Positions 77-64,000 of a DNA stretch of 64,000 bases are shown in pieces. The stretch's first letter is position 1; the number at the start of each line of letters is the position of its first letter. The DNA lies in the NCBI RefSeq assembly GCF_003334785.1, contig NZ_QOWV01000001.1, one strand, 5' to 3'. The position numbers and the translations under genes were made by a program. Origin of the DNA: Escherichia coli (GTDB taxonomy: Bacteria; Pseudomonadota; Gammaproteobacteria; Enterobacterales; Enterobacteriaceae). The notes beneath the pieces are model-generated. The model worked only from the letters and a program-made list of their open reading frames with translations. It was not told the DNA's origin and searched no databases.

Positions 77-208
77 ATTTAAAGGTGGTTACTGGTAGAG
101 AACGTGAAGGATAACGTTGCGTTAGCAACGGCCCGAAGGGCGAGACGAAGTCGAGTCATCCTGCACGACCCACCATCCTGAATGATTAAGGCAGCATAAT
201 CCCGCAAG

Positions 209-284
209 GGGTCGTTAGCTCAGTTGGTAGAGCAGTTGACTTTTAATCAATTGGTCGCAGGTTCGAATCCTGCACGACCCACCA
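209..284 (+). tRNA. lysQ: tRNA-Lys (anticodon UUU)
   Basis: Exact duplicate of 1-76, located immediately upstream of nadA. Confidence 0.9.
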
Positions 285-289
285 ATGTA

Positions 290-317
290 AAAAAGCGCCC
301 TAAAGGCGCTTTTTTGC
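290..317 (+). terminator. Rho-independent terminator of the tRNA operon
   Basis: GC hairpin agcgcc/ggcgct followed by a T-run. Confidence 0.75.
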
Positions 318-470
318 TATTCAGGCATCCTCAATTTCACTTTGTAAACCTGATGACATCGTCAGAGCTTACTGTGCAAGCAACTCTATGTCGGTGGAAT
401 TAGGCGTAAAATGACGCATCCTGCACATTAGGCGTAATTCGAGTGACTTTTCCCCACCATTCGACTATCT

Positions 471-488
471 TGTTTAGCATATAAAACA
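471..488. promoter_or_regulatory. Putative NadR operator (TGTTTA...TAAACA-like)
   Basis: tgtttagcatataaaaca palindrome-like motif about 75 bp upstream of the nadA start. Confidence 0.5.
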
Positions 489-560
489 AATTACACCGAT
501 AACAGCGAATATTACGCTAATGTCGGTTTTAACGTTAAGCCTGTAAAACGAGATGGTAAG

Positions 561-1604
561 ATGAGCGTAATGTTTGATCCAGACACGGCGATTTATCCTT
601 TCCCCCCGAAGCCGACGCCGTTAAGCATTGATGAAAAAGCGTATTACCGCGAGAAGATAAAACGTCTGCTAAAAGAACGTAATGCGGTGATGGTTGCCCA
701 CTACTATACCGATCCCGAAATTCAACAACTGGCAGAAGAAACCGGTGGCTGTATTTCTGATTCTCTGGAAATGGCGCGCTTCGGTGCAAAGCATCCCGCT
801 TCTACTTTGTTAGTCGCTGGGGTGAGATTTATGGGAGAAACCGCCAAAATTCTCAGTCCGGAAAAAACAATTCTGATGCCGACACTTCAGGCTGAATGTT
901 CACTGGATCTCGGCTGCCCTGTTGAAGAATTTAACGCATTTTGCGATGCCCATCCCGATCGTACTGTCGTCGTCTACGCCAACACTTCTGCTGCGGTAAA
1001 AGCGCGCGCAGATTGGGTGGTAACTTCAAGCATTGCCGTCGAACTTATTGATCATCTTGATAGTTTGGGTGAAAAAATCATCTGGGCACCCGACAAACAT
1101 CTGGGGCGTTACGTGCAAAAACAGACGGGTGGAGACATTCTATGCTGGCAGGGTGCCTGTATTGTGCATGATGAATTTAAGACTCAGGCGTTAACCCGCT
1201 TGCAAGAAGAATACCCGGATGCTGCCATACTGGTGCATCCAGAATCACCACAAGCTATTGTCGATATGGCGGATGCGGTCGGTTCCACCAGTCAACTGAT
1301 CGCTGCTGCGAAAACATTGCCACATCAGAGGCTTATTGTGGCAACCGATCGGGGTATTTTCTACAAAATGCAGCAGGCGGTGCCAGATAAAGAGTTACTG
1401 GAAGCACCAACCGCAGGTGAGGGTGCAACCTGCCGCAGCTGCGCGCATTGTCCGTGGATGGCCATGAATGGCCTTCAGGCCATCGCAGAGGCATTAGAAC
1501 AGGAAGGAAGCAATCACGAGGTTCATGTTGATGAAAGGCTGCGAGAGAGGGCGCTGGTGCCGCTCAATCGTATGCTGGATTTTGCGGCTACACTACGTGG
1601 ATAA
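561..1604 (+). CDS. nadA: Quinolinate synthase A
   Basis: 347-aa ORF; N-terminus [18 protein letters not shown] matches the NadA family. Confidence 0.95.
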
Positions 1605-1641
1605 CGAATAATAAGGCGTAACGTTACGCTTTGGGGGAAAG

Positions 1642-2361
1642 ATGGATTTTTTTAGTGTGCAGAATATCCTGGTACATATACCAATAGGGGCAGGCGGTTA
1701 TGATCTCTCATGGATCGAAGCGGTAGGCACGATCGCCGGGTTGCTGTGTATTGGCCTTGCCAGTCTGGAGAAGATCAGCAACTACTTCTTTGGCCTGATC
1801 AACGTCACCTTGTTTGGCATTATTTTCTTTCAGATTCAGCTGTATGCCAGCCTGCTATTACAGGTGTTTTTCTTTGCCGCGAATATTTACGGTTGGTATG
1901 CGTGGTCGCGACAAACCAGTCAGAACGAGGCGGAGTTGAAAATTCGCTGGTTGCCATTGCCGAAGGCACTCAGCTGGTTGGCGGTTTGCGTTGTTTCGAT
2001 TGGTCTGATGACGGTATTTATCAATCCGGTGTTTGCATTTTTGACCCGCGTGGCAGTCATGATCATGCAAGCATTAGGATTACAGGTTGTGATGCCTGAA
2101 CTGCAACCGGACGCTTTCCCGTTCTGGGATTCATGCATGATGGTGTTATCTATCGTGGCAATGATTCTGATGACGCGTAAGTATGTGGAAAACTGGCTGT
2201 TGTGGGTGATTATTAACGTGATTAGCGTCGTTATTTTTGCACTTCAGGGCGTTTACGCCATGTCTCTGGAGTACATCATCCTGACCTTTATTGCGCTCAA
2301 CGGCAGCCGGATGTGGATCAACAGCGCACGTGAAAGAGGCTCACGCGCGCTGTCCCATTAA
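1642..2361 (+). CDS. pnuC: Nicotinamide riboside transporter
   Basis: 239-aa polytopic membrane ORF directly downstream of nadA. Confidence 0.92.
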
Positions 2362-3299
2362 TGGTGATGATGTGAATGGCCAGACACCCCTTCATTCAGG
2401 TGGCAGTCTGGCCCATGACAAGGTTGATATTCCATCTGAATGGTGGCGTGCTCAATCTGATAGTGATCCATCAGGTAGTGTTGGATCTGATCCAACAAGG
2501 CATCGTGATCGTGTGGCGGGATCACCTGCACATGCAACGTCATCACCGGCTTCTCGCCTACCATCCATACATGTACATGGTGCACATTGCGGACTTCCGG
2601 GATTTCCCGGCACATACGACGCTTCAGTTCAGCGATATCCAGCGATACCGGTGCACCTTCAAGTAATTCATTCACGCTATCTTTCAACAGTCGCCACGCG
2701 CTACGCAGAACCAGAAGCGACACCAGTATCGAGAGAATGGGGTCAGCAGGTGTCCAGCCAGTCCAGATAATAATCAACGCGGCAATAATAGCCCCAACCG
2801 AACCCAGCAGGTCCCCGAGCACATGCAGTGCCGCTGCTCGTACGTTGAGGTTTTTCTCTTCGCTGCCGTGATGAAGTAACCAGAAAGAAAGTATATTTGC
2901 CAGCAACCCAGCCACGGCAATTGCCATCATCATGCCGCCCTCGACCGGACGCGGCGTGCGGAAGCGTTCTATCGCCTCCCAGACAATCAAAATGGTAATT
3001 ACCACGAGGGCTATGGCATTCACAAACGCCGCGAGCGTGGTCAGTCTTAGCCAACCGAAAGTGTGGCGAATGGTGGGAGGACGACGTGAAAATTGCACGG
3101 CGAGTAGGGCGAAAAGCAGGGCGGCAGTATCGGTCAACATATGACCCGCATCGGCCAGCAATGCCAGAGAACCAGAAAGAAAACCACCAACGACTTCTAC
3201 CAGCATAAACCCGGCAGTCACGCCGAAAGCATACAACAAGCGACGAGCATTATTATCTTCTGGCAGGTGTGAGGACGTGTGTGAGTGTGAGTGCGCCAT
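2358..3299 (-). CDS. zitB: Zn(II)/cation diffusion facilitator efflux protein
   Basis: 313-aa ORF with His-rich termini ([11 protein letters not shown]...HSHHHH) and a CDF-type transmembrane core. Confidence 0.93.
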
Positions 3300-49347: not shown

Positions 49348-50712
49348 ATGTCTTTCGATTCTTTGGGTTTAAGCCCTGATATCCTGCGCGCCGTTGCCGA
49401 GCAGGGTTACCGTGAACCCACCCCTATTCAGCAGCAGGCGATCCCTGCGGTGCTGGAAGGCCGCGACCTGATGGCTAGCGCCCAGACCGGCACCGGCAAA
49501 ACAGCGGGCTTTACGCTGCCGCTGTTGCAACACCTGATCACTCGCCAGCCGCACGCCAAAGGGCGTCGTCCGGTACGTGCGCTCATTCTTACCCCGACCC
49601 GTGAACTGGCGGCGCAGATTGGCGAAAACGTCCGTGATTACAGCAAATACCTGAACATTCGTTCGCTGGTGGTGTTTGGTGGTGTGAGTATTAACCCGCA
49701 GATGATGAAACTGCGTGGCGGCGTTGATGTGCTGGTGGCAACCCCGGGACGTTTGCTGGACCTGGAACATCAGAATGCAGTGAAGCTGGATCAGGTTGAA
49801 ATCCTCGTCCTCGATGAAGCTGACCGCATGCTCGACATGGGCTTTATCCACGATATCCGTCGCGTGTTAACAAAACTACCTGCGAAGCGCCAGAACCTGT
49901 TATTCTCCGCGACCTTCTCTGACGATATTAAAGCCCTGGCGGAAAAACTGTTGCACAACCCGCTGGAAATCGAAGTGGCACGCCGCAATACCGCGTCTGA
50001 TCAGGTGACCCAGCACGTTCACTTTGTCGATAAGAAACGCAAACGCGAATTGCTGTCGCACATGATTGGGAAAGGGAACTGGCAGCAGGTGCTGGTGTTT
50101 ACCCGTACCAAACACGGCGCTAACCATCTGGCTGAACAGCTCAATAAAGATGGCATCCGTAGTGCGGCGATCCACGGCAATAAATCGCAAGGTGCGCGTA
50201 CTCGTGCGCTGGCTGATTTTAAATCGGGCGATATTCGTGTACTGGTGGCAACTGACATCGCTGCGCGCGGCCTGGATATTGAAGAGCTGCCGCACGTCGT
50301 CAACTATGAACTGCCAAACGTACCTGAAGATTATGTCCACCGTATCGGGCGTACCGGTCGTGCGGCTGCTACCGGTGAAGCGTTGTCGCTGGTGTGTGTT
50401 GATGAACACAAACTGCTGCGTGATATCGAAAAACTGCTGAAAAAAGAGATCCCGCGCATTGCGATTCCGGGCTATGAGCCGGACCCGTCAATCAAAGCCG
50501 AACCGATCCAGAACGGTCGCCAGCAACGTGGCGGCGGCGGTCGTGGGCAAGGTGGTGGTCGCGGTCAACAGCAACCACGCCGTGGGGAAGGTGGCGCAAA
50601 ATCTGCAAGCGCGAAACCTGCAGAAAAACCGTCTCGCCGCCTCGGCGATGCCAAACCGGCAGGCGAACAACAACGTCGCCGCCGTCCGCGTAAACCTGCC
50701 GCTGCGCAGTAA
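49348..50712 (+). CDS. rhlE: ATP-dependent DEAD-box RNA helicase
   Basis: 454-aa ORF; GKT Walker A, DEAD box (VLDEADRM), RG-rich basic C-terminal tail. Confidence 0.95.
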
Positions 50713-50764
50713 TCTTTTATGCCGGGCTATGCCCGGCATCAGGCTGATGAACAAACGCAAAACT

Positions 50765-50864
<100 letters not shown>

Positions 50865-50943
50865 TTCACAACAAGCACTTGTCAGCAATTTGAGAACACG
50901 GGAAAAAATTTATCTGTTTTACCGCCCATAAGCCACCGAGACG

Positions 50944-51426
50944 TTACTTCTCTATAGCCAATTGTTCGCGCAACTCCATTAAAAGGTAGCCCAGTCGATT
51001 CTTGCCCTTACCATGACCACCGTCTCCCCAGTAAGCATCGTTTTCCGTATGCTCAACCAGTTTTGCGGGCGCGGTTGCCAGCAAGAGCGCACGCAGTTCT
51101 GCATGCTGTTCGAATTTAGCGCGAAGTGCTTTTCGCATCACCTGTTCTTTGACCGACTCCCAGTTTTTACGCAGAGGCTTAGAACGATCGCGCCCCATGC
51201 GTGCGGCGACCATAGGGGAAGAAACCCGACGGATCTCTTCGCGGTATTTTTCATCAAGGAATTTTTGTGCCTGAAAATAGTGTTCTGAGGTGGGCCAGGT
51301 TTTCCCGTCAACCTTGATGGGCCAGGCGGCAAAGTTAGAAAAATCACCGTAGTCATCGCTGGTGCTGTAGAAATTTATGATGGTGTCTTGCATGACGTGT
51401 TGGATCCTTTGTGCTCGAACGGGCAT
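50944..51426 (-). CDS. ybiA: YbiA-family N-glycosidase (DUF1768)
   Basis: 160-aa ORF; divergent from dinG. Confidence 0.85.
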   Translation of the reverse strand: MPVRAQRIQHVMQDTIINFYSTSDDYGDFSNFAAWPIKVDGKTWPTSEHYFQAQKFLDEKYREEIRRVSSPMVAARMGRDRSKPLRKNWESVKEQVMRKALRAKFEQHAELRALLLATAPAKLVEHTENDAYWGDGGHGKGKNRLGYLLMELREQLAIEK

Positions 51427-51511
51427 TAAACCGCATTATGTTGGTGGTTATTGCGAGCCGCTTTCCAGAAACAGAAAAACCATTACCCCTGAAAACCGAA
51501 AAATGCCACAA

Positions 51512-51531
51512 TATTGGCTGTTTATACAGTA
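51512..51531. promoter_or_regulatory. Non-canonical LexA box of dinG
   Basis: tattggctgtttatacagta has TTG-N10-CAG spacing that mimics the SOS box; about 15 bp upstream of the dinG ATG. Confidence 0.7.
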
Positions 51532-51545
51532 TTTCAGGTTTTCTC

Positions 51546-53696
51546 ATGGCATTAACCGCCGCGCTTAAAGCGCAAATTGCCGCCTGGTATAAGGCGCTTC
51601 AGGAACAGATCCCCGACTTTATTCCCCGTGCGCCGCAGCGGCAGATGATTGCGGACGTCGCCAAAACGCTGGCCGGAGAAGAAGGGCGACATCTGGCGAT
51701 TGAAGCCCCCACCGGCGTTGGGAAAACGCTCTCTTATTTGATTCCCGGCATCGCCATTGCCCGCGAAGAGCAAAAAACGCTGGTGGTGAGTACCGCCAAC
51801 GTGGCATTGCAGGATCAGATTTACAGCAAAGATTTACCGCTGCTGAAAAAGATCATTCCCGATCTTAAATTCACTGCCGCTTTTGGGCGTGGGCGCTACG
51901 TTTGTCCGCGTAATCTGACGGCGCTCGCCAGTACTGAACCCACGCAACAGGATCTGCTGGCGTTTCTTGACGACGAACTGACGCCGAACAATCAGGAAGA
52001 GCAAAAACGTTGTGCGAAGCTGAAGGGCGATCTCGATACTTATAAATGGGATGGTCTGCGCGATCATACTGATATCGCTATAGATGACGATCTCTGGCGT
52101 CGTTTAAGTACCGACAAAGCCAGCTGCCTCAACCGCAATTGTTACTACTATCGTGAATGCCCGTTTTTTGTCGCTCGTCGGGAGATTCAGGAAGCGGAAG
52201 TGGTGGTGGCAAACCATGCGCTGGTGATGGCGGCGATGGAAAGCGAAGCGGTATTGCCTGACCCGAAAAATTTACTGCTGGTGCTGGACGAAGGCCATCA
52301 CCTGCCGGATGTGGCGCGGGATGCGCTTGAGATGAGCGCCGAAATCACCGCGCCGTGGTATCGGCTACAGCTGGACTTGTTCACGAAACTGGTCGCTACC
52401 TGCATGGAGCAGTTTCGCCCGAAGACCATCCCACCGCTGGCGATCCCTGAACGTTTGAATGCGCATTGTGAAGAGTTGTATGAGCTTATCGCCTCGTTAA
52501 ACAACATTCTCAATCTCTACATGCCTGCCGGGCAGGAGGCAGAGCACCGTTTTGCGATGGGCGAACTGCCAGATGAAGTGCTGGAGATCTGCCAGCGGCT
52601 GGCAAAACTCACCGAGATGCTGCGTGGCCTGGCGGAGTTATTTCTTAACGATTTAAGTGAGAAAACCGGCAGCCATGACATTGTACGTCTGCATCGGTTG
52701 ATTTTGCAGATGAACCGCGCGTTGGGGATGTTCGAGGCGCAAAGCAAACTCTGGCGGCTGGCTTCGCTGGCGCAATCTTCCGGTGCACCGGTGACCAAAT
52801 GGGCGACGCGGGAAGAGCGCGAAGGGCAGCTACACCTCTGGTTTCACTGCGTGGGAATACGTGTCAGCGATCAGCTGGAAAGGCTGCTGTGGCGCAGTAT
52901 TCCGCACATTATTGTCACCTCCGCAACCTTGCGTTCGCTGAACAGTTTTTCGCGTTTGCAGGAGATGAGTGGTCTGAAAGAGAAAGCGGGCGACCGTTTT
53001 GTGGCGCTGGATTCCCCCTTTAACCACTGCGAACAGGGCAAAATTGTTATTCCCCGGATGCGCGTTGAGCCTTCCATCGACAACGAAGAGCAGCATATTG
53101 CCGAAATGGCGGCCTTTTTCCGTAAGCAGGTGGAGAGCAAAAAACATCTCGGTATGTTGGTACTGTTTGCCAGCGGACGGGCGATGCAGCGCTTTCTCGA
53201 CTATGTGACGGATTTACGTCTGATGTTGCTGGTTCAGGGCGATCAGCCGCGTTACCGTTTAGTTGAACTGCACCGCAAACGCGTCGCCAACGGTGAGCGC
53301 AGCGTGCTGGTGGGCTTACAGTCATTTGCCGAAGGGCTTGATTTGAAAGGTGATCTGCTCAGCCAGGTGCATATCCACAAAATCGCTTTTCCGCCCATCG
53401 ACAGCCCGGTGGTGATCACCGAAGGGGAATGGCTGAAAAGCCTCAACCGCTATCCGTTTGAGGTGCAAAGCCTGCCGAGCGCCTCGTTTAACCTGATTCA
53501 GCAGGTTGGGCGACTGATTCGAAGCCACGGTTGCTGGGGCGAAGTGGTTATCTACGACAAACGCTTGCTGACCAAAAATTATGGCAAGCGACTACTGGAT
53601 GCATTACCGGTATTTCCGATAGAGCAACCGGAAGTCCCTGAAGGTATAGTTAAAAAGAAAGAAAAAACGAAATCCCCACGCCGTCGGCGGCGTTAA
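51546..53696 (+). CDS. dinG: ATP-dependent DNA helicase DinG (XPD-like)
   Basis: Start placed at MALTAALKAQIAAWYKAL; Walker A APTGVGKT; DEGHH box; 716 aa. Confidence 0.93.
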   Translation: MALTAALKAQIAAWYKALQEQIPDFIPRAPQRQMIADVAKTLAGEEGRHLAIEAPTGVGKTLSYLIPGIAIAREEQKTLVVSTANVALQDQIYSKDLPLLKKIIPDLKFTAAFGRGRYVCPRNLTALASTEPTQQDLLAFLDDELTPNNQEEQKRCAKLKGDLDTYKWDGLRDHTDIAIDDDLWRRLSTDKASCLNRNCYYYRECPFFVARREIQEAEVVVANHALVMAAMESEAVLPDPKNLLLVLDEGHHLPDVARDALEMSAEITAPWYRLQLDLFTKLVATCMEQFRPKTIPPLAIPERLNAHCEELYELIASLNNILNLYMPAGQEAEHRFAMGELPDEVLEICQRLAKLTEMLRGLAELFLNDLSEKTGSHDIVRLHRLILQMNRALGMFEAQSKLWRLASLAQSSGAPVTKWATREEREGQLHLWFHCVGIRVSDQLERLLWRSIPHIIVTSATLRSLNSFSRLQEMSGLKEKAGDRFVALDSPFNHCEQGKIVIPRMRVEPSIDNEEQHIAEMAAFFRKQVESKKHLGMLVLFASGRAMQRFLDYVTDLRLMLLVQGDQPRYRLVELHRKRVANGERSVLVGLQSFAEGLDLKGDLLSQVHIHKIAFPPIDSPVVITEGEWLKSLNRYPFEVQSLPSASFNLIQQVGRLIRSHGCWGEVVIYDKRLLTKNYGKRLLDALPVFPIEQPEVPEGIVKKKEKTKSPRRRRR

Positions 53697-53723
53697 TGAT
53701 GTGAGTCAGGTAAGGAGTCGTAA

Positions 53724-54686
<963 letters not shown>

Positions 54687-54692
54687 TTCTTT

Positions 54693-54769
<77 letters not shown>

Positions 54770-54814
54770 ACGCCCGGCGTGCAGCATAAAAATACAACAA
54801 ACACATAACATAAA

Positions 54815-55912
<1,098 letters not shown>

Positions 55913-55946
55913 AAAAAAGCCCGTCCAGTGGCGGACGGGCAAACAA
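55913..55946. terminator. Bidirectional terminator (hcxB / ybiJ)
   Basis: gcccgtccagtggcggacgggc hairpin with an A-run on the plus strand, that is a T-run for the minus-strand ybiJ transcript. Confidence 0.7.
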
Positions 55947-56060
55947 GGGTAACATAGGATCAATGAGGGTTAGAGCATATGCGTCTGTCGGCAAACAGAC
56001 AGGGAAATACTTGTGCTGGACGTAGCGTAAACGCCTGATCCGTCCAACGGTTCGGATTTT

Positions 56061-56135
56061 GTAGGCCTGATAAGACGCGGTAGCGTCGCATCAGGCATCT
56101 GTTGCCGGATGCGGCGTAAACGCCTTATCCGTCCT
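56061..56135. repeat. REP palindromes
   Basis: gtaggcctgataagacgcg...gcatcaggc and gccggatgcggcgtaaacgccttatccg. Confidence 0.65.
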
Positions 56136-56140
56136 ACGAA

Positions 56141-56401
56141 TTACTTATAAATTACCGCAGTACCGCTTAATTTATTGTTGTTGGTGGCGGAAGTGATGCT
56201 GTATCCACTGGCACCGGCTGCCGCGGCTTTCTCAGCCAGTTTCGCTTCCAGGGCATCGAGGGTGGATGCGCCATCGGCAGAAACCACGCCGATTTTATTC
56301 ATGTTCTGTGCCTGGGATGCCGTTACCGGTTCCGCCGCGAACACGCCAAATGACAGAGTTGAAAGAGCCATAGCAGCAACAACAGTATTGATAGTTTTCA
56401 T
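56141..56401 (-). CDS. ybiJ: DUF1471 (YhcN-family) periplasmic small protein
   Basis: 86-aa ORF with a signal peptide and a C-terminal ...GTAVIYK. Confidence 0.85.
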   Translation of the reverse strand: MKTINTVVAAMALSTLSFGVFAAEPVTASQAQNMNKIGVVSADGASTLDALEAKLAEKAAAAGASGYSITSATNNNKLSGTAVIYK

Positions 56402-56665
56402 AATTAATCTCTCGCAGGTGATTTTTGTATAAGTGACGTTGTTTCGTCGATGTGATGAGTATCACGTTTTTTTACGAGAGATAAAATCGAAGAGAATTGA
56501 CCGCCTTGTTCAAATAAATTGATTGATATCTAACCTACTGATAAACCATTTATTTGTTGTACTTATGAACTTGTTTTATACCGCGTGGCAGTCACAGCAG
56601 CGTTAAAGGCACGGAATGACACGCAAAATACAAATTATACTCGCTATGCATCTCGCCAGTTGTAG

Positions 56666-56932
56666 TTAACGTAACTGGCTGTCTTTCGAACCTCTGCGAT
56701 TATATCCTGTATAAGCTGGTTTTTGTAAATCTTTCTCCTGCTGACAATGAATACATAAGCGCACGCCAGGAATGGCTTCCCGACGGGCCTGCGGGATGGG
56801 GGCACCGCACTCTTCACATTCATCCAGGCTTTCGCCGCGCGGAATTTCACCCCGAGCGCGGGCAATCGCATCTTCAATTGTACTGTTGATCTGTTCGTTG
56901 ACGGCGTCATCGTTAGCCCAACCGGATGCCAT
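56666..56932 (-). CDS. ybiI: DksA/TraR-family C4 zinc-finger protein
   Basis: 88-aa ORF with CEECGAPIP...CIHCQ. Confidence 0.85.
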   Translation of the reverse strand: MASGWANDDAVNEQINSTIEDAIARARGEIPRGESLDECEECGAPIPQARREAIPGVRLCIHCQQEKDLQKPAYTGYNRRGSKDSQLR

Positions 56933-57005
56933 ATCGACCTCCCCATATCAATACTTGTACAGTTAAGTGTAGCTAATCCAGGGACGAACTCGGGCAGTTC
57001 AAGCA

Positions 57006-57683
57006 TCAGATCTCCGACCATTCCCGCAGCAGATTATGATAAAGATTAAGCAGCGACAGGATCTCTTCACTTTCGCCGTAGCGGCTTTTCAGCGACTGAA
57101 TATTGTTGTCCAGTTCAAACAGCATGGCGCGCTTTTTATCATCGCGGATCATCGACTGGATCCACATAAATGATGCCACTCGTACGCCGCGGGTTACGGG
57201 TGTCACGCAATGCAGGCTGCTGGAGGGATACAACACGAGATCGCCTGCCGGGAGTTTTACCCGATGTTGTCCGAAGGTGTCATTAACGACCAGTTCGCCG
57301 CCGTCGTAGCTTTGTGGATCGCTTAAAAACAGCGTGGCAGAAAGGTCAGTACGCATCCAGCCGTTTTGTGGATGGCTGCGTACTGCGCCATCCACATGGA
57401 AACCATAGGTTTCATTGTTCTGATAGCGATTAAACAGCGGCGTGGAAAGGGTACGCGGCAAGGCCGCGGCAAAGAATAAAGCATGTTGGTTAACCGCGTT
57501 CAGCACCTCATTTTGCAGGGCGGCGTATAACGTGCTGCGGGTGTCGACCTGTTGATTGTTCTTAACTTGCGCACCTTGTGCGCCGGTGGTGACGCGTCCA
57601 TCCACCCATTCGGCTTGTTCCAGTTGTTCGCGAAAACGAGCGACGTCCTGTGGCGATAACACGCCGGGAATGTGGTACATCAT
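57006..57683 (-). CDS. ybiX: PKHD-type Fe(II)/2-oxoglutarate-dependent hydroxylase
   Basis: Start placed at [13 protein letters not shown]; 225 aa; 41 bp downstream of fiu. Confidence 0.85.
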
Positions 57684-57724
57684 ACAATTTCTCCAAAAAG
57701 TGGGGCCTGCGCCCCACATCTGAA

Positions 57725-60007
57725 TCAGAAATGCATATTGGCTGTGAGCAAGAAGGTTCTTGGCTCGCCCGGGTGATAACGGTAGCCGCTCTTGTTGATT
57801 GAGGCGACGTAATCGGTATCAAACAGGTTGTAAACGTTTAGCTGGAAGTCGAGATTGCGATTAACTCGATACCCCAGTTTGGCATCGGCGACCCAGTAAC
57901 CTTCGGTAAACGCTGGCGTTCCCACCGCGCCGTCTGAACCTTTATGCATACTGCCGATATAGCGTGCGCCCGCGCCAACAGAGATATCGTCGGTTGCCTG
58001 ATATTGGCTCCATAAGGTGAAGGCGTGCTCCGGGGTATACGGCAGCGATGAGGAACCATCCTGGGCAACATCTTTGCCGTTTTTGATGGTTGCTTTTTGC
58101 TGGGTATAGCCGCCAATCACCTGCCACGCGGGAGTGATATTCCCGGCCACGGATATCTCATAGCCTTCGACGCGTTTCTTACCGTATTGCGAGTAAGTTC
58201 CGTCATCATTTTGCTCAACTTCATTTTCGATATCAGTGCGGAACAGCGCGGCGGTGAGCAACAGACGTTTATCCAGAACCTGCCATTTGGTGCCAATCTC
58301 GCTGGTGTTGGCTTTTTGCGGTTTAAAATCGGTGCGGTTGGCACTGTTACCGCTGCCAGACTGCGCAAGGGCGAAGTTGTTGCCGCCCGGAGGCTGCTGG
58401 GAAACGGCATAGTTAATATAGACATTGCCGTTTTCCGTCAGGTGATACAGCGCCCCGGCTTTCCAGTTCATCAGATTGCCCGACTTGGCGGTGTCGACGG
58501 TGGTGACCGGAGAACCTTTTGCCACACCAGTTGGGCAGGTGATGGCACCGCGTCCGCTGCCGCCGCAGGCGGTGGCACTGTCATATTCAGTATGATAATT
58601 ATCCAGACGGATCCCGCCGTTCAGCTCAAAATCACGGGTGATTTGCAGCGTATCAAAGGCGTAAATTGCGAAGGTATCCGTCTGACCATTGGCGTTTGCG
58701 CCGTTGCGCGTCAGGCCGCCGGGATGAATGCTGCTGTCAGGATGATAAATATTTACCGCGGGTAACGTCACCGGATTAACGCCGTAGTTAGTCTGCGTTT
58801 CACGGGTAAATTCCACGCCGGTACTGACATCATGACCGATAGAACCGGTATAGAACGTCGAGGTCAGGTTGGTCTGGTTGGTGAGAATTTTATTACTCAC
58901 ATCTTTGGTATTCGCCGTGCGTGACCAGGTCCAGCTATTCACATCGCTGGTGGGCTGAGTAATATTCGACGCCCCGCCCATAATCGCCGTCATCAGGTAA
59001 TCCTGCTTTACGCGCGACCAACGGGTAGTATTGCGAATGGTGGTGTTATCGTTGATGTCGTGCTCAAAACGCATGGTGGCGGTGTCGGTGGTCGAATCGT
59101 CGTAATCGGAATCCGTGCCGTAAAAGTTATGAGTATCAACTTTTCCGGAATGATTCAGGGCCGCCGTTCCCGCAGATGGGGCAGAATAGCCCGGCAAACC
59201 GATGGTCGGAATGCCGCCGTCTGGCGTGTTGTGCTGGGTGACATGCAGATAATTAAGATACAAACGATTCGCTGTACCAAGGCCAAAAGCGACAGAAGGG
59301 GCGACGCCGTAACGCTCATTTTTGACTTTGTCGCGTCCGGCATCGTGCGTTTTTTCGCCCATTACATTCAGGCGCACCGCGGTGGTATCACCAATGACCT
59401 GATTGACGTCCAGCGTGCCGCGGCGGAACCAGGCGCTGCCAATACTGGCGGAGGCGTCAATGCCGGAATCATTGCGCGGCTGCTTGCTGATCATATTGAT
59501 CGAGCCTGTCGGTGCGCTGCGCCCGTAGTCGGTGCCGGACGGCCCTTTAATCACTTCGACCTGCTCGGTATTGAAGGTGTCGCGCGAGACGCTGCCGATA
59601 TCGCGAATGCCATCAATATAAATACTGTTAGAGGTATCGGCACCACGCATATAAATGGCGTCGCCAGTGGTGGAGTTACCGTTCTCACCCGCAAAAAACG
59701 CACCCACGCCGGGGACGTTTTTGAGCGCGTCGGTAAGGTTGGTTGCGCCCTGATCTTTAATCACTTGTTCAGAAATTACCGTCATCGTGCGGGTAGTATC
59801 CGCTACCGGACGCGAGAATTTCGGATCGGCAGATTGTTGTGGCGCATAAAGCGAAGGCGTTGATGCTTCGACAACCAGCGTGTCATCCGCGTTAGTTTGC
59901 CCTTCGGCGGCGAGTGCCTGAGCCACAGGCGTGATGCCAATACAAAGACCGGCAAAGAACGTGAGCGAATGAAATTGTCTGGCAGGGAAATTGCGATTGT
60001 TTTCCAT
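57725..60007 (-). CDS. fiu: TonB-dependent catecholate siderophore receptor
   Basis: 760-aa ORF with a signal peptide, TonB box region, beta-barrel and C-terminal aromatic residue (F). Confidence 0.92.
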
Positions 60008-60111
60008 TTTGCAGGTGACTTTTTCTTATATGTTGAAATTTTCACTGCCACGAGAAAGCCTCTCTGCGGATGCGATGCCACTGTTAATCCCGTGATAGTG
60101 ATCGTGAAAGT

Positions 60112-60136
60112 GATAATAATTTTGATAAGCATTATC
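60112..60136. promoter_or_regulatory. Fur box upstream of fiu
   Basis: gataataattttgataagcattatc is a strong Fur consensus match about 105 bp upstream of the fiu start. Confidence 0.75.
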
Positions 60137-60271
60137 ACTTGGAGCGATTTTCTATCACCCATTGCGCGAAAAAGAAATACATTTATTTACATTGAGTTCA
60201 TATTTGATGTTTTTTGATTACAAAACAGACGAAAACTGCATCCAGAGGCGAATGCAGTTACGTTGGTGGGG

Positions 60272-60532
60272 TTATTTGTAGATGGTTGCAGTACCGAACA
60301 TCTGGTCATTTCCGCCTGCGGAATTAATGACATAACCTTTCGCGCCTTGTTCGCGCGCTTTTTCTGCCAGTTTATCCTCCAGATCGCTTAGGTTTGATGC
60401 GCCAGTTGCCGAAACGGTACCGGCGGGCCGTAGCTGACCGCTGTCCAGGTTACTCATCGGTTGCGCGGCATAAGCCGTGAGAGAGATTCCGCTCAGGACG
60501 GTGGCAATCAGTAGTGTGAGGCACTTTTTCAT
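60272..60532 (-). CDS. mcbA: DUF1471 (YhcN-family) periplasmic small protein McbA
   Basis: Start placed at MKKCLTLLIATVLSG (signal peptide); 86 aa; C-terminal ...GTATIYK; paralog of ybiJ. Confidence 0.85.
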   Translation of the reverse strand: MKKCLTLLIATVLSGISLTAYAAQPMSNLDSGQLRPAGTVSATGASNLSDLEDKLAEKAREQGAKGYVINSAGGNDQMFGTATIYK

Positions 60533-60807
60533 AATGACATCCTCATAAATACAACGGGTAGTGCCTGATAAGTGTAGGTCGCCTGCGCGATGCAAATGAC
60601 GCAAAAAATTGACAGAGATGTGCTTATTTTTTGAACGATATATTTTTACAAAATAAGACAAATCAATGACATGCATAATGCTGATTTTTATGATGAATTG
60701 CCATAAACCATAGCCATGTTAAGGTTTTGGGGAATGATAAACGCAGCCAGATATTTACCCTGTCGCGTTATGCGGGTATCTTACGCCGCTGCTTAAAGGA
60801 GAATGCT

Positions 60808-61734
60808 ATGTCCGCCCAGAAACCGGGGTTGCATCCGCGCAACCGTCATCACAGCCGCTACGATCTCGCCACGCTTTGTCAGGTCAATCCTGAACTCAGG
60901 CAATTCCTCACGCTTACACCCGCCGGGGAGCAAAGCGTAGACTTTGCCAATCCGCTGGCGGTGAAGGCGCTCAATAAGGCGTTGCTGGCCCATTTTTACG
61001 CCGTAGCGAACTGGGATATCCCCGACGGTTTTCTCTGCCCACCAGTACCGGGCCGGGCGGATTATATTCATCACCTTGCCGATTTACTGGCAGAAGCAAG
61101 CGGAACAATTCCAGCGAATGCCAGCATTCTGGATATCGGCGTTGGTGCGAACTGTATTTATCCGCTGATTGGCGTACATGAATATGGCTGGCGTTTTACC
61201 GGTAGTGAAACCAGCAGCCAGGCGTTAAGCAGTGCGCAGGCGATTATCAGTTCTAATCCGGGGCTTAACCGCGCCATTCGTCTGCGTCGGCAAAAAGAGA
61301 GTGGGGCGATTTTTAACGGCATCATCCATAAAAACGAGCAATACGACGCGACCTTGTGTAACCCGCCATTCCACGATTCCGCCGCTGCGGCACGGGCAGG
61401 TAGTGAGCGTAAACGCCGTAACCTGGGGCTGAACAAAGACGATGCACTGAACTTTGGCGGCCAGCAACAGGAGTTGTGGTGTGAAGGCGGTGAAGTCACC
61501 TTTATCAAAAAGATGATTGAAGAGAGCAAAGGCTTCGCGAAGCAGGTGATGTGGTTTACATCACTGGTATCTCGTGGTGAAAACTTACCGCCGTTGTATC
61601 GTGCCCTGACGGACGTGGGCGCGGTGAAGGTGGTTAAAAAAGAGATGGCCCAGGGGCAAAAGCAGAGTCGCTTTATTGCCTGGACCTTTATGAACGACGA
61701 GCAGCGCCGCCGTTTTGTCAATCGCCAGCGTTAA
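60808..61734 (+). CDS. rlmF: 23S rRNA m6A1618 methyltransferase
   Basis: Start placed at [20 protein letters not shown]; NPPF motif; 308 aa. Confidence 0.9.
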
Positions 61735-63956
61735 AGCGTTGGTTCCCCCGGCGGTAACGGTTCAGCCGGGGTCGCGCCCGGAGCAGGCAGCACCTGATAA
61801 GTCTGCACTGGCGCGCGAACGCCCGCCAGGTCGAAATGTTTTTTCACCTGGCTGTCGAGGGCAAAGCGTACCGTCCACTGTTTGAGTGGCAGCGTGGTGA
61901 ACGAAACACGCAGTGTAAACGCGGTATTGCTTAAGCCGACAATCCCGGCAAAATTCGGTTCACCAATAATCAGCCCGCGAATTTCTTCGTTTTCCATTAA
62001 TTCCGCTACCGCATCTTTCAGTGCCTGATTGGCTTTATCAGCATCTTCATGGCGATCAACATCATAATTTGCCACCACCGAACCAATGCCGCGGACAAAG
62101 TTAGCAAAGGTGGTTATCGAAGACCACGGAATGATGTGATACGCCCCGGTATCCTGTCGTACGCCCACGGAGCGAATCGACATCCGTTCCACTGTGCCGG
62201 TCAACGGCCCGATAGTCACCAAATCTCCAGTGTTCATGCCGTTTTCAAACTGAATAAATACCCCGGTGATAATATCTTTCACCAGCGTTTGCGAACCAAA
62301 CGAGATAGCCAGACCTAATGCCCCGGCACCTGCCAGCAATGGCGCGATATTGACGCCGATTTCCGACAACACAATCATGATGGTGATGGTACTGATAATC
62401 ACCGCCAGCGCGTTACGAAACAGCGTAAGCAGGGTACGCGTGCGGGCGCTGGGTAGCGGGCGGCCATGAATATCCGAAGCCAGCCGGTTTTCGATCAAAC
62501 TGGCGAGCACCGTCCAGCCAACCGCCGAGAAGAAAAGAATGAGTGCGATACGGATCAGGATATCTACGGTTTTCTGCCCCGCGCCGTTTTGCAGCCAGTT
62601 CCAGAAATCGAACAATCCCCATGCGCTCAACAGCAACATTACCGCCACGCAGACTGTCAGAATACGCGCCGTTTTCAGCGCCGCCGACAGCCAGCCATTC
62701 AACCGTTTTTGCAGCTCCGGATAGTTACGCTGAGTATGTGGCGAGAGAGTGATGGTTTTCGCCAGCCAGCGGGAAAACATACCGGAAACAAACGCTGCGA
62801 TACCAATAATCGCCAGGCTGCGCACCGTTGCACCCATCATAAATTTCAGGCTGTTGCCCGGATCGAACAACGAAAAGAAAAACAGCACGATAAAATAGGC
62901 GCTTGCCAGCCAGTGCCACACCAGCGCAAAGGCGCGGATAAACAGGCTGAAAAAGGCCAGCGAATGCTCCGCGAAGTTGAGCAAATGCTGGGTAATCTCT
63001 TTTTTATTACGAAAGATCAGGTACAACGCCCAGACGGTCATGCACAGCATAATGATGACGTTCGCCAGCGCACCTATCTGTACATTCACCTGATTAGAGA
63101 TAATCGGCACGGCCACAATCAGGCCATAACCTATCAAACTGCTTAACCAGCTCAGGCGACGACTCCAGTAACGGGCGCTCTCGTCCTGAATCGTGAACGG
63201 GCGCAGCTCCGCCACGTTTGGGCAAAAAATCAGGCGTAGTACGGCTTTGAAAAATTCAATGAGGGCAAAGGCGTTGAGAAACAAACTTTGTTGGAAAGCG
63301 ATGGTGCGACTGCCTGCATTCAGGTTGTCGCTTAATACCTGGCCGACAAATAATGTCAGGGCCAGTAACAGCAGGTCGATAATAAACGCCCCGATAATCA
63401 TCGCCGGAAGCTGCAACCAGTTGCTGCGCTCACGATTTTTTTGCCGCGCCCACTGACCCATTTTGCGATACAGCGGCAGTGCGCACAGGCGAATCAGCCA
63501 GTAAAAACCAAACACTAATACCGCTAACATTGAAAAATGGGTCAGCGCATTGCTGAAGGTTTGTGGATTAAACGGCTTATGCGGGGAGCCGGTGATATTG
63601 CGATAAAGTTGCCCGAAGCGGGCGGAAAGGGCTTCACCATAATGGCGGCTGACTTCGGTGACCTTTTGCAGCACGGTTTGCTCTTCGACCAGCGTCGGCG
63701 GCACTATTTTTGGTACCGGTTCAGCAGGGGGCGTAGCGGCAACGGTGCGCAACTGGTCGATCAACTCTTTACGCGAGGTGTCATTATCCAGCACATCCGC
63801 CAGTGCGCCATAGGCCGCTTTTTTTTGTTCGATATCCGGTTCCGGGGCCGGTTCAGTCGTTGAGTCCGTTGCCGTTGTGGTTGTAACGCCGGGTATGGAT
63901 ACCGCGTGGGCAGGTGCGCCCAGCAGGCAGAAGAGGATGAACAGGATCCACCGCAT
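61731..63956 (-). CDS. ybiO: MscS-family mechanosensitive channel with large N-terminal extension
   Basis: Start placed at [18 protein letters not shown] (signal peptide); 741 aa; continues close to the window end. Confidence 0.88.
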
Positions 63957-64000
63957 GACTCCTCCAGTGAGAAAATAGAGCAAAAAGATAAGTATAGATG

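What the first reader, a model, noticed from the sequence alone, without database searches (positions are those of the whole stretch)
56141..60532. Paralogous DUF1471 secreted small proteins (ybiJ and mcbA) bracket the fiu cluster
Two 86-aa signal-peptide proteins with clearly related C-termini (...SGYSITSATNNNKLSGTAVIYK versus ...KGYVINSAGGNDQMFGTATIYK) lie on the same strand about 4 kb apart, flanking fiu-ybiX-ybiI. The flanking duplication of a stress and biofilm-associated small-protein family around an iron-uptake locus is not explained by gene-by-gene annotation.
Basis: seen in the sequence. Interest (0 to 1): 0.35.

Follow-up and report, generated by a model that had tools for sequence, protein, structure and literature searches.

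The report
Two old DUF1471 paralogs flanking fiu
Two known small periplasmic stress proteins of E. coli (YbiJ and McbA) do flank the fiu iron-uptake genes, but they are anciently diverged family members in a variable chromosomal slot, each with its own promoter, so the arrangement is an ordinary leftover of gene-family growth, not a functional unit.

Summary
The window is E. coli, 99.98% identical to K-12 MG1655. It carries ybiJ (56141-56401) and mcbA (60272-60532), both 86 aa, both PF07338/DUF1471, same strand, flanking fiu-ybiX-ybiI. All are annotated, published genes.

YbiJ-McbA identity is 47%, the same as YbiJ to the unlinked BhsA (47%) and close to YbiJ-YhcN (45%). Third codon positions are saturated, the flanks share no similarity, and the two promoters conserve different motifs.

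A survey of about 45 loci shows the bracket in Escherichia, Citrobacter, Raoultella, Leclercia, Silvania and Pseudocitrobacter. The slot between rlmF and ybiJ nevertheless has at least eight configurations:
- Salmonella lacks mcbA, fiu and ybiX.
- E. cloacae has mcbA-ybiI-ybiJ without fiu-ybiX.
- Scandinavium and "E." lignolyticus have mcbA directly next to ybiJ.
- The K. oxytoca group lacks mcbA.
- Pantoea carries fiu-ybiX elsewhere, with no DUF1471 neighbour.

Published data put fiu, ybiX and ybiI in a Fur iModulon whose listed members do not include ybiJ or mcbA.

Best reading: an old local duplication, with the self-contained fiu-ybiX module gained or lost between the copies. Low interest; already known genes.

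The parts
56141..56401 (-). ybiJ, an 86-aa DUF1471 protein with a Sec-type signal peptide (MKTINTVVAAMALSTLSFGVFA|AEP)
   Evidence: ORF; MG1655 annotation b0802; PF07338; NCBIfam YbiJ equivalog at 173 bits against a cut-off of 110. It is the only gene of the slot present in every Enterobacteriaceae locus that reaches that far.
60272..60532 (-). mcbA (ybiM), an 86-aa DUF1471 periplasmic protein (MKKCLTLLIATVLSGISLTAYA|AQP)
   Evidence: ORF; annotation b0806; PF07338; NCBIfam McbA at 174.5 bits. It evolves fast: 63-73% identity to Citrobacter and 51-56% to Raoultella, against 80-85% and 74-77% for YbiJ.
57725..60007 (-). fiu, the TonB-dependent catecholate siderophore receptor
   Evidence: Annotation. 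It was the anchor of the synteny survey.
57006..57683 (-). ybiX, a PKHD-type 2-oxoglutarate/Fe(II) hydroxylase that forms a two-gene module with fiu
   Evidence: Annotation. fiu-ybiX occur together without ybiI or DUF1471 genes in Pantoea. Pairing of a TonB receptor with a 2OG oxygenase is reported across Proteobacteria (PMC12004943).
56666..56932 (-). ybiI, a DksA/TraR-type C4 zinc-finger protein
   Evidence: Annotation. It stays with ybiJ when fiu-ybiX are absent, in Salmonella, E. cloacae and Kosakonia. It is a member of the Fur-1 iModulon in E. coli.
60100..60142 (.). Cluster of overlapping Fur-box-like sites in the fiu promoter, between the mcbA stop and the fiu start
   Evidence: Five overlapping 19-mers with 12-15 of 19 matches to GATAATGATAATCATTATC. 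Only 8 sites in the whole 64-kb window reach 14 or more.
60222..60260 (-). Intrinsic terminator directly after mcbA (10-bp stem, then UUUUCGUCUGUUUU)
   Evidence: RNA fold -15.9 kcal/mol, z = -4.1, 0 of 200 shuffles as stable.
56402..56560 (-). ybiJ promoter/5' region with motifs conserved across 13 genera, including TTCGATTTTATCT and the palindrome CGTGATACTnATCACATCGAC
   Evidence: Alignment of upstream regions. It shares no similarity with the mcbA upstream region beyond shuffles.
60533..60690 (-). mcbA promoter/5' region with a different conserved set (GTTCAAAAAA ... TTTTTTGC ... CTAMACTTA ... GAGGA)
   Evidence: Alignment of upstream regions in 9 genera.
55911..56138 (-). ybiJ 3' UTR: two REP copies (Rfam naRNA4 match at 56064-56134) and the ZbiJ sRNA (55911-56007) with its terminator (55919-55940)
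   Evidence: ZbiJ verified by northern blot in PMC8175672.

Best explanation
ybiJ and mcbA are two long-diverged members of the ten-member DUF1471 (YhcN/BhsA) family of small secreted envelope-stress proteins. Each is its own transcription unit. They most likely arose by an old local, same-strand duplication at the rlmF-ybiB locus. The Fur-controlled fiu-ybiX module, together with ybiI, now lies between them. The 'bracket' is therefore a historical by-product of family growth plus gain or loss of independent gene modules in a variable slot. It is not a functional or regulatory unit with the iron-uptake genes. Shown: paralogy, saturation of divergence, separate promoters and a terminator, and modular presence/absence across genera. 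Inferred: that the two copies come from a tandem duplication, and that fiu-ybiX was present in the ancestor of the genera surveyed and later lost in some.
For: (1) Divergence is old. Protein identity is 47% and CDS nucleotide identity 50%. Third-position identity is 30%, and only 14 of 40 identical-residue codons are the same codon.

(2) No repeat longer than a 25-nt, 72% patch links the two genes. Upstream and downstream flanks are no more alike than shuffles (P = 0.14 and 0.65).

(3) YbiJ and McbA orthologues form separate clades (NJ bootstrap 94% and 91%) in conserved positions across at least 8 genera.

(4) The slot is modular. The orders seen are:
- rlmF|mcbA|fiu ybiX ybiI|ybiJ (Escherichia, Citrobacter, Leclercia, Silvania)
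- the same order plus a flavin-reductase gene (Raoultella, Pseudocitrobacter)
- no mcbA (K. oxytoca group)
- no mcbA and no ybiI (MGYG-00110)
- mcbA|ybiI|ybiJ (E. cloacae)
- mcbA|ybiJ directly adjacent, with a 445-bp spacer holding no remnants (Scandinavium, '[E.] lignolyticus')
- ybiI|ybiJ only (Salmonella, Kosakonia)
- fiu-ybiX alone in another context (Pantoea)

(5) E. cloacae against E. coli shows a clean ~3.3-kb indel that carries exactly the fiu promoter, fiu and ybiX.

(6) Family members cluster on the K-12 chromosome (P = 0.0036), as local duplication would predict. Eletsky et al. note other adjacent DUF1471 pairs and propose duplication and divergence (PMC4092069).

(7) Regulation is separate. 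There is a Fur-box cluster in front of fiu only and a terminator after mcbA. Different conserved motifs lie in the two promoters. The Fur-1 iModulon list contains fiu, ybiX and ybiI, and neither ybiJ nor mcbA is named in that paper.
Against: The sister relationship of YbiJ and McbA is not resolved. J+M is the most frequent grouping, but at only 15-20% bootstrap (J+BhsA 2-11%, M+BhsA 8%). A tandem origin therefore rests on position and orientation, not on the tree. The bracket is conserved in 29 of the Fiu-anchored loci, and both genes were strongly induced in one condition (radish sprouts). Some shared physiology is therefore not excluded. Direct expression data for mcbA under iron limitation were not obtained.
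Confidence: 0.75

Rival explanations
1. Functional island: the DUF1471 proteins act with Fiu/YbiX, for example by tuning outer-membrane permeability or receptor function under iron or metal stress. On this reading they are kept on both sides of the locus by selection.
For: The bracket order is retained in six genera. BhsA, the closest third paralogue, sits 7.5 kb from fhuE in E. coli, and in K. pneumoniae its repressor gene comR abuts a TonB-dependent receptor gene. ybiJ and mcbA are co-induced on radish sprouts.
Against: Every combination of loss is tolerated. fiu-ybiX occur without DUF1471 genes (Pantoea). mcbA and ybiJ occur without fiu-ybiX (E. cloacae, Scandinavium). ybiJ occurs alone with ybiI (Salmonella, Kosakonia). 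fiu occurs without mcbA (K. oxytoca group). The flanking housekeeping genes are just as syntenic, so conserved order is not evidence of function. There is no Fur box at mcbA or ybiJ, and neither appears in the Fur iModulon lists. The radish induction also includes the unlinked yjfY.
Confidence: 0.06
2. Independent arrival: the two genes are not products of a local duplication. One of them moved or was transferred into the variable slot next to the other, so the proximity is coincidental.
For: The tree does not resolve J+M as sisters, and BhsA is equally similar to both. The slot clearly accepts foreign modules (flavin reductase, fiu-ybiX, IS421). A single close pair has about a 9% chance expectation.
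Against: The family shows significant physical clustering overall (P = 0.0036). The two genes share a strand, and in two genera they are directly adjacent. They have equal length and align without gaps, unlike BhsA (85 aa) and YhcN (87 aa).
Confidence: 0.18
3. Recent segmental duplication or a composite mobile element, with the two DUF1471 genes as its flanking repeats around fiu.
For: Only the superficial picture of two related genes in direct orientation, 4.1 kb apart.
Against: There is no DNA repeat beyond a 25-nt, 72% patch. Third codon positions are saturated and the flanks are unrelated. Both genes have positional orthologues across the family. There are no transposase genes in the window region.
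Confidence: 0.01

Closest known systems
DUF1471 / YhcN / BhsA-McbA family (Pfam PF07338); Eletsky et al. 2014, PMC4092069
   Same: Both proteins are typical members: about 86 aa, an N-terminal Sec signal and one PF07338 domain. The family is described as restricted to Enterobacterales. Solved relatives are 2NOC and 2MA4 (SrfN). The family is already described as expanded by repeated duplication, with adjacent pairs in some genomes.
   Different: Nothing differs at the protein level. The specific mcbA/ybiJ positional relationship is not discussed in the papers read here.
yjfN-bsmA adjacent DUF1471 pair of E. coli, and the yhcN/ycfR-like pair of Salmonella
   Same: These are same-strand neighbouring paralogues of the same family, taken as products of local duplication.
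   Different: Those pairs are directly adjacent. In E. coli, mcbA and ybiJ are separated by three unrelated genes. They are directly adjacent only in Scandinavium and '[E.] lignolyticus'.
fiu-ybiX / piuA-piuC / cciT-cciO modules (TonB receptor plus 2OG oxygenase)
   Same: The genes between the two paralogues are this widespread two-gene module, which is Fur-regulated.
   Different: The module has no DUF1471 partner outside Enterobacteriaceae, nor in Pantoea.

Membership tests
DUF1471 (PF07338) small secreted proteins | Significant match to the PF07338 domain | tested here: met
   YbiJ E 1.2e-17 and McbA E 3e-19, each over residues 34-86 and the full model.
DUF1471 (PF07338) small secreted proteins | Score above the curated NCBIfam cut-off for the named subfamily | tested here: met
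   YbiJ 173.1 bits and McbA 174.5 bits, against a cut-off of 110 for each.
DUF1471 (PF07338) small secreted proteins | N-terminal Sec signal peptide, size about 90 aa, single domain | tested here: met
   Read from the sequence: a basic n-region, a hydrophobic core, and VFA|A or AYA|A cleavage motifs in 86-aa proteins. No signal-peptide predictor was run. Periplasmic location is reported in PMC12282094 and PMC4092069.
Tandem (local) gene duplicates | Each is the other's closest paralogue in the genome | tested here: inconclusive
   McbA's best K-12 match is YbiJ (SW 175 against 170 for BhsA). YbiJ's best match is BhsA (180 against 175). NJ bootstrap for a J+M grouping is 15-20%.
Tandem (local) gene duplicates | Same orientation and direct adjacency in at least some lineages | tested here: met
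   Same strand in every locus. Directly adjacent in L063 and L064. Separated only by ybiI in E. cloacae L056.
Recent segmental duplication / flanking repeats | Nucleotide-level similarity of the copies and their flanks | tested here: not met
   50% nucleotide identity, 30% at third positions; flanks are not above shuffles.
Fur regulon / fiu operon | Fur box in the promoter, or co-transcription from the fiu promoter | tested here: not met
   The Fur-box cluster lies only at 60100-60142, downstream of the mcbA terminator. Upstream of mcbA there is only one isolated 13/19 Fur-box-like match (60674-60692), a strength reached by 12 sites in the 64-kb window; nothing comparable lies upstream of ybiJ. 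ybiJ lies 264 bp past ybiI and has its own conserved promoter.
Fur regulon / fiu operon | Membership of the Fur iModulons or iron-responsive expression | tested here: not met
   The Fur-1 iModulon list contains fiu, ybiX and ybiI. ybiJ and mcbA do not occur in that paper's main text (PMC10164565). This is literature only; no expression data were analysed here.

The most novel reading that the evidence does not exclude
The rlmF-ybiJ slot could be a conserved envelope-remodelling hot-spot. In it, DUF1471 proteins (McbA, YbiJ, and by analogy BhsA next to a TonB receptor in Klebsiella) would modulate outer-membrane permeability or TonB-receptor function. The recurring neighbourhood with siderophore receptors would then reflect a real, so far unrecognised, functional link.
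Probability: 0.05. Interest if true: 0.5.

Novelty: already known. Interest (0 to 1): 0.12.

Why it matters
It matters little. The genes, their family, their paralogy and the Fur control of fiu-ybiX-ybiI are all published. This work adds a small comparative note with three points. First, the slot upstream of ybiJ is highly modular across Enterobacteriaceae. Second, positional McbA orthologues exist well beyond Escherichia but fall below the NCBIfam naming cut-off. Third, ybiI travels with ybiJ rather than with fiu. This may help people who annotate or study DUF1471 proteins, but it does not open a new question.

Tried and rejected
(1) A strict Fur-box search with at most 3 mismatches found nothing near fiu. 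A relaxed count of matches was needed to see the site cluster.

(2) Contexts of three 50%-identity cluster representatives (P0138, P0179, P0140) were looked up to trace the family outside Enterobacteriaceae. All three lie on metagenomic contigs of 0.9-2.9 kb and were uninformative.

(3) Many of the 150 representatives from the all-protein search are frameshifted or chimeric fragments. Only clean full-length ones were used for the tree.

(4) Supplementary tables of the acid-stress study were searched for mcbA, ybiJ and fiu values. The stored files are cut, so no values were found.

(5) The NJ tree with 200 bootstraps, on full-length and on mature regions, could not resolve the order of YbiJ, McbA, BhsA and YhcN. 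No maximum-likelihood program was available.

(6) The composite-transposon or recent-duplication idea was rejected on DNA evidence.

(7) The rlmF-fiu gap of the K. oxytoca group was searched for mcbA remnants. None were found; a 204-aa flavin-reductase gene sits there instead.
Full report
**What is there.** The window is E. coli. Positions 50476-64000 are 99.98% identical (3 mismatches in 13,525 bases) to K-12 MG1655 832000-845524. In MG1655 the stretch is annotated, in window orientation, as follows:
- hcxB (+)
- the sRNA zbiJ, the small protein gene ybiE, then ybiJ (-)
- ybiI (-), ybiX (-), fiu (-), mcbA (-)
- rlmF (+), ybiO (-)

Each encodes 86 residues, with exactly the quoted C-termini. 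Both match Pfam PF07338. Both pass the curated NCBIfam models for YbiJ and McbA. Their closest solved relatives are the DUF1471 structures 2NOC and 2MA4. The region is part of the E. coli core: 5417 of 5426 complete genomes hold at least 80% of it.

**Is the pair special among the family?** I retrieved all ten K-12 DUF1471 proteins from the MG1655 record: YbiJ, McbA, BhsA, YhcN, YjfN, BsmA, YjfY, YahO, RclB and YdgH. I then compared them all against all.

| Pair | Identity | Smith-Waterman score |
|---|---|---|
| YbiJ-McbA | 47% | 175 |
| YbiJ-BhsA | 47% | 180 |
| McbA-BhsA | 43% | 170 |
| YbiJ-YhcN | 45% | 157 |

BhsA and YhcN are encoded 0.33 Mb and 2.5 Mb away. NCBIfam profile scores give the same picture of a near-trichotomy. 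YbiJ scores 116 on the BhsA model and 81 on the McbA model. McbA scores 101 on BhsA and 74 on YbiJ. BhsA scores 78 on McbA and 70 on YbiJ.

At the DNA level the two coding regions are 50% identical, with 30% identity at third codon positions. Only 14 of the 40 codons for identical residues are the same codon. The 5' and 3' flanks are no more similar than shuffled sequence. The repeat finder reports only a 25-nt, 72% patch at the two 3' ends. This is an old divergence, not a recent or mobile duplication.

**Phylogeny.** I used positional orthologues from the loci below, the K-12 paralogues, and clean full-length representatives from an all-protein profile search. A neighbour-joining analysis recovers a YbiJ clade (94%) and a McbA clade (91%). 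It leaves the order of YbiJ, McbA, BhsA and YhcN unresolved. YbiJ+McbA is the commonest grouping but reaches only 15-20% of 200 bootstraps. YbiJ+BhsA reaches 2-11% and McbA+BhsA 8%. With about 60 mature residues, this question cannot be settled with the tools at hand.

**Is the bracket conserved?** A scan of one genome per species, anchored on Fiu, returned 44 loci. I mapped neighbours by tblastn.
- The order rlmF | mcbA | fiu ybiX ybiI | ybiJ | (hcxB) ybiB holds in Escherichia, Citrobacter, Silvania and Leclercia.
- The same order, with an extra 204-aa flavin-reductase gene after rlmF, holds in Raoultella and Pseudocitrobacter.
- In all, 29 loci carry both DUF1471 genes around fiu.
- McbA evolves markedly faster than its neighbours. 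E. coli to Citrobacter is 63-73% and to Raoultella 51-56%, against 80-85% and 74-77% for YbiJ.
- The E. cloacae and Raoultella positional orthologues score below the NCBIfam McbA cut-off (107 and 83 against 110). This may explain why McbA has been treated as nearly Escherichia-specific.

**The slot is modular.**
- The K. oxytoca group has the flavin-reductase gene in place of mcbA, with no remnant.
- One gut Enterobacteriaceae genome lacks both mcbA and ybiI.
- Four Pantoea-type loci carry fiu-ybiX in a different neighbourhood, with no ybiI and no DUF1471 gene within 10 kb.

Look-ups anchored on YbiJ orthologues gave further configurations:
- Salmonella: rlmF | ybiI | ybiJ. The contiguous mcbA-fiu-ybiX block is absent, in agreement with Eletsky et al. 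that Salmonella lacks YbiM.
- E. cloacae: rlmF | mcbA-like | ybiI | ybiJ. Its DNA aligns to E. coli on both sides of a clean ~3.3-kb indel holding exactly the fiu promoter, fiu and ybiX.
- Kosakonia: rlmF | flavin reductase | ybiI | ybiJ.
- '[Enterobacter] lignolyticus' and Scandinavium: a McbA orthologue (57-66% to E. coli McbA) directly next to ybiJ. They are separated by a 445-bp spacer without remnants of ybiI, ybiX or fiu. The last ~100-125 bp before ybiJ are 81-90% identical to the E. coli ybiJ upstream region.

ybiJ is the one constant. mcbA, fiu-ybiX and ybiI are each present or absent independently of one another.

**Regulation.**
- A cluster of overlapping Fur-box-like sites (12-15 of 19 matches) lies at 60100-60142, in front of fiu.
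- Immediately after the mcbA stop codon there is a strong terminator hairpin with a U-tract (-15.9 kcal/mol, z = -4.1). mcbA is therefore insulated from fiu.
- The regions upstream of ybiJ and of mcbA are each well conserved across genera but carry entirely different motifs.
- Published data agree. The Fur-1 iModulon list contains fiu, ybiX and ybiI, and neither ybiJ nor mcbA occurs in that paper's main text (PMC10164565). Serum induces ybiX, fiu and ybiI (PMC4145685).
- ybiJ is among the top acid-induced genes, together with the unlinked bhsA and yhcN (PMC10746267).
- mcbA is repressed by McbR/YncC (Zhang et al. 2008, as cited in PMC4092069).
- The single shared response I found is strong induction of ybiJ (logFC 6.6) and ybiM (7.5) in EHEC on radish sprouts. 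The unlinked yjfY (7.5) responds equally there. In the other ten conditions the two genes behave differently (PMC4048457). That is a family trait, not a property of the bracket.

**Explanation.** The ten family members are more clustered on the K-12 chromosome than chance allows. Two pairs lie within 5 kb (P = 0.0036) and four pairs within 10 kb (P = 0.00015). mcbA and ybiJ share a strand, are directly adjacent in two genera, and are separated only by ybiI in a third. I therefore think the most likely history is an old local duplication at this locus. The self-contained fiu-ybiX module lies between the copies in many lineages. That module pairs a TonB receptor with a 2-oxoglutarate oxygenase and is widespread in Proteobacteria (PMC12004943).

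From my own knowledge of Enterobacteriaceae relationships, Leclercia and Silvania group with Enterobacter, and Salmonella groups with Escherichia and Citrobacter. The module was therefore probably already present in the common ancestor of the genera surveyed and was lost several times. This polarity is an inference and was not tested on a species tree. Independent arrival of one gene in a slot that visibly accepts foreign DNA remains possible (about 0.18). A functional partnership with Fiu is unlikely (about 0.06), because every partial configuration is viable in nature and no regulatory link is seen.

**Comparison with what is known.** Everything here is annotated and published. The DUF1471 family, its expansion by duplication and its adjacent pairs are in Eletsky et al. 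2014. 'YbiJ is a paralog of McbA' is stated in Sondervorst et al. 2025. Fiu-YbiX-YbiI is a known Fur-controlled unit. The only additions are the catalogue of slot configurations and the wider distribution of positional McbA orthologues.

**Verdict.** Interest is low.

Noticed in passing
window 55911-56138: The ybiJ 3' UTR holds two REP copies (Rfam naRNA4 hit at 56064-56134), the annotated sRNA ZbiJ (55911-56007) and the antisense small-protein gene ybiE (55979-56038). The paralogue bhsA also has a 3'-UTR sRNA, BhsB. So two of the three closest paralogues carry 3'-UTR-derived sRNAs. The REP copies probably explain the median of 11 match places per E. coli genome.
   Followed up: partly
L061 2270-3382 (E. 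coli O157:H16 98-3133; corresponds to window ~57684-57724): Eight 100%-identical E. coli genomes from different sources (cattle, chicken, farm environment, food, raw milk, human) carry an IS421 (IS4-like) element in the 41-bp gap between fiu and ybiX. This should uncouple ybiX and ybiI from the Fur-controlled fiu promoter.
   Followed up: partly
window 56445-56470: Upstream of ybiJ there is a palindrome, TGTGATGAGTATCACG (TGTGA-N6-TCACg, CRP-like by my own knowledge of the consensus). It is almost invariant in 13 genera, together with TTCGATTTTATCT and an AT-rich block. No regulator is annotated for it in the records I saw.
   Followed up: partly
window 60545-60640: The mcbA upstream region conserves GTTCAAAAAA, TTTTTTGC and CTAMACTTA across 9 genera. 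The last resembles an RpoS-type extended -10 element (my own knowledge, not tested).
   Followed up: no
window 60272-60676: The mcbA reading frame is open upstream to an ATG at 60676, giving a 134-aa ORF. Public collections hold many copies called at that longer length (for example P0029, 134 aa, 1368 member sequences). The annotated 86-aa start has a GAGGA Shine-Dalgarno sequence 6 nt upstream and begins the signal peptide.
   Followed up: partly
L056 9058-9324; L037 3958-4221: Positional McbA orthologues of E. cloacae and Raoultella score 107 and 83 bits on the NCBIfam McbA model (cut-off 110). Annotation pipelines therefore name them only 'DUF1471 domain-containing protein', and McbA looks more restricted than it is.
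   Followed up: yes
L052 9450-9716; L056 9449-9715; L062 6449-6715; window 56666-56932 and 57032-57050: ybiI stays with ybiJ when fiu-ybiX are absent, and it is absent where fiu-ybiX stand alone (Pantoea). No Fur-box-like site of 12/19 or better lies upstream of ybiI in Salmonella or E. cloacae. In E. coli a 14/19 site lies inside the 3' end of ybiX. Fur control of ybiI in E. coli may come from its position behind fiu-ybiX.
   Followed up: partly
L054 6683-10261 (K. pneumoniae); L002 1-9331 (E. coli): At the bhsA locus of K. pneumoniae a 729-aa TonB-dependent receptor gene lies next to comR, about 1.1 kb from bhsA. In E. coli, fhuE lies 7.5 kb from bhsA. This is a second DUF1471 gene near a siderophore-receptor gene, possibly by coincidence.
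   Followed up: no
L018, L022, L042, L046, L062-L064 (for example L062 5736-6350): A 204-aa flavin-reductase-like gene (PF01613) occupies the position after rlmF in Klebsiella, Raoultella, Kosakonia, Scandinavium and others. It is absent in Escherichia, Citrobacter and Salmonella. It is another variable module of the same slot.
   Followed up: partly
L033, L049, L050: Assemblies labelled 'uncultured Bacteroides sp.' and 'Streptomyces sp. DH24' contain fragments 98-100% identical to E. coli fiu. This is most likely contamination or mis-binning.
   Followed up: no
window 60008-60271 and 56402-56665: The mcbA-fiu spacer and the ybiI-ybiJ spacer are both exactly 264 bp. These two spacers were not aligned with each other; I found no similarity between the ybiJ and mcbA flanks that were compared, so I take this as coincidence.
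   Followed up: partly
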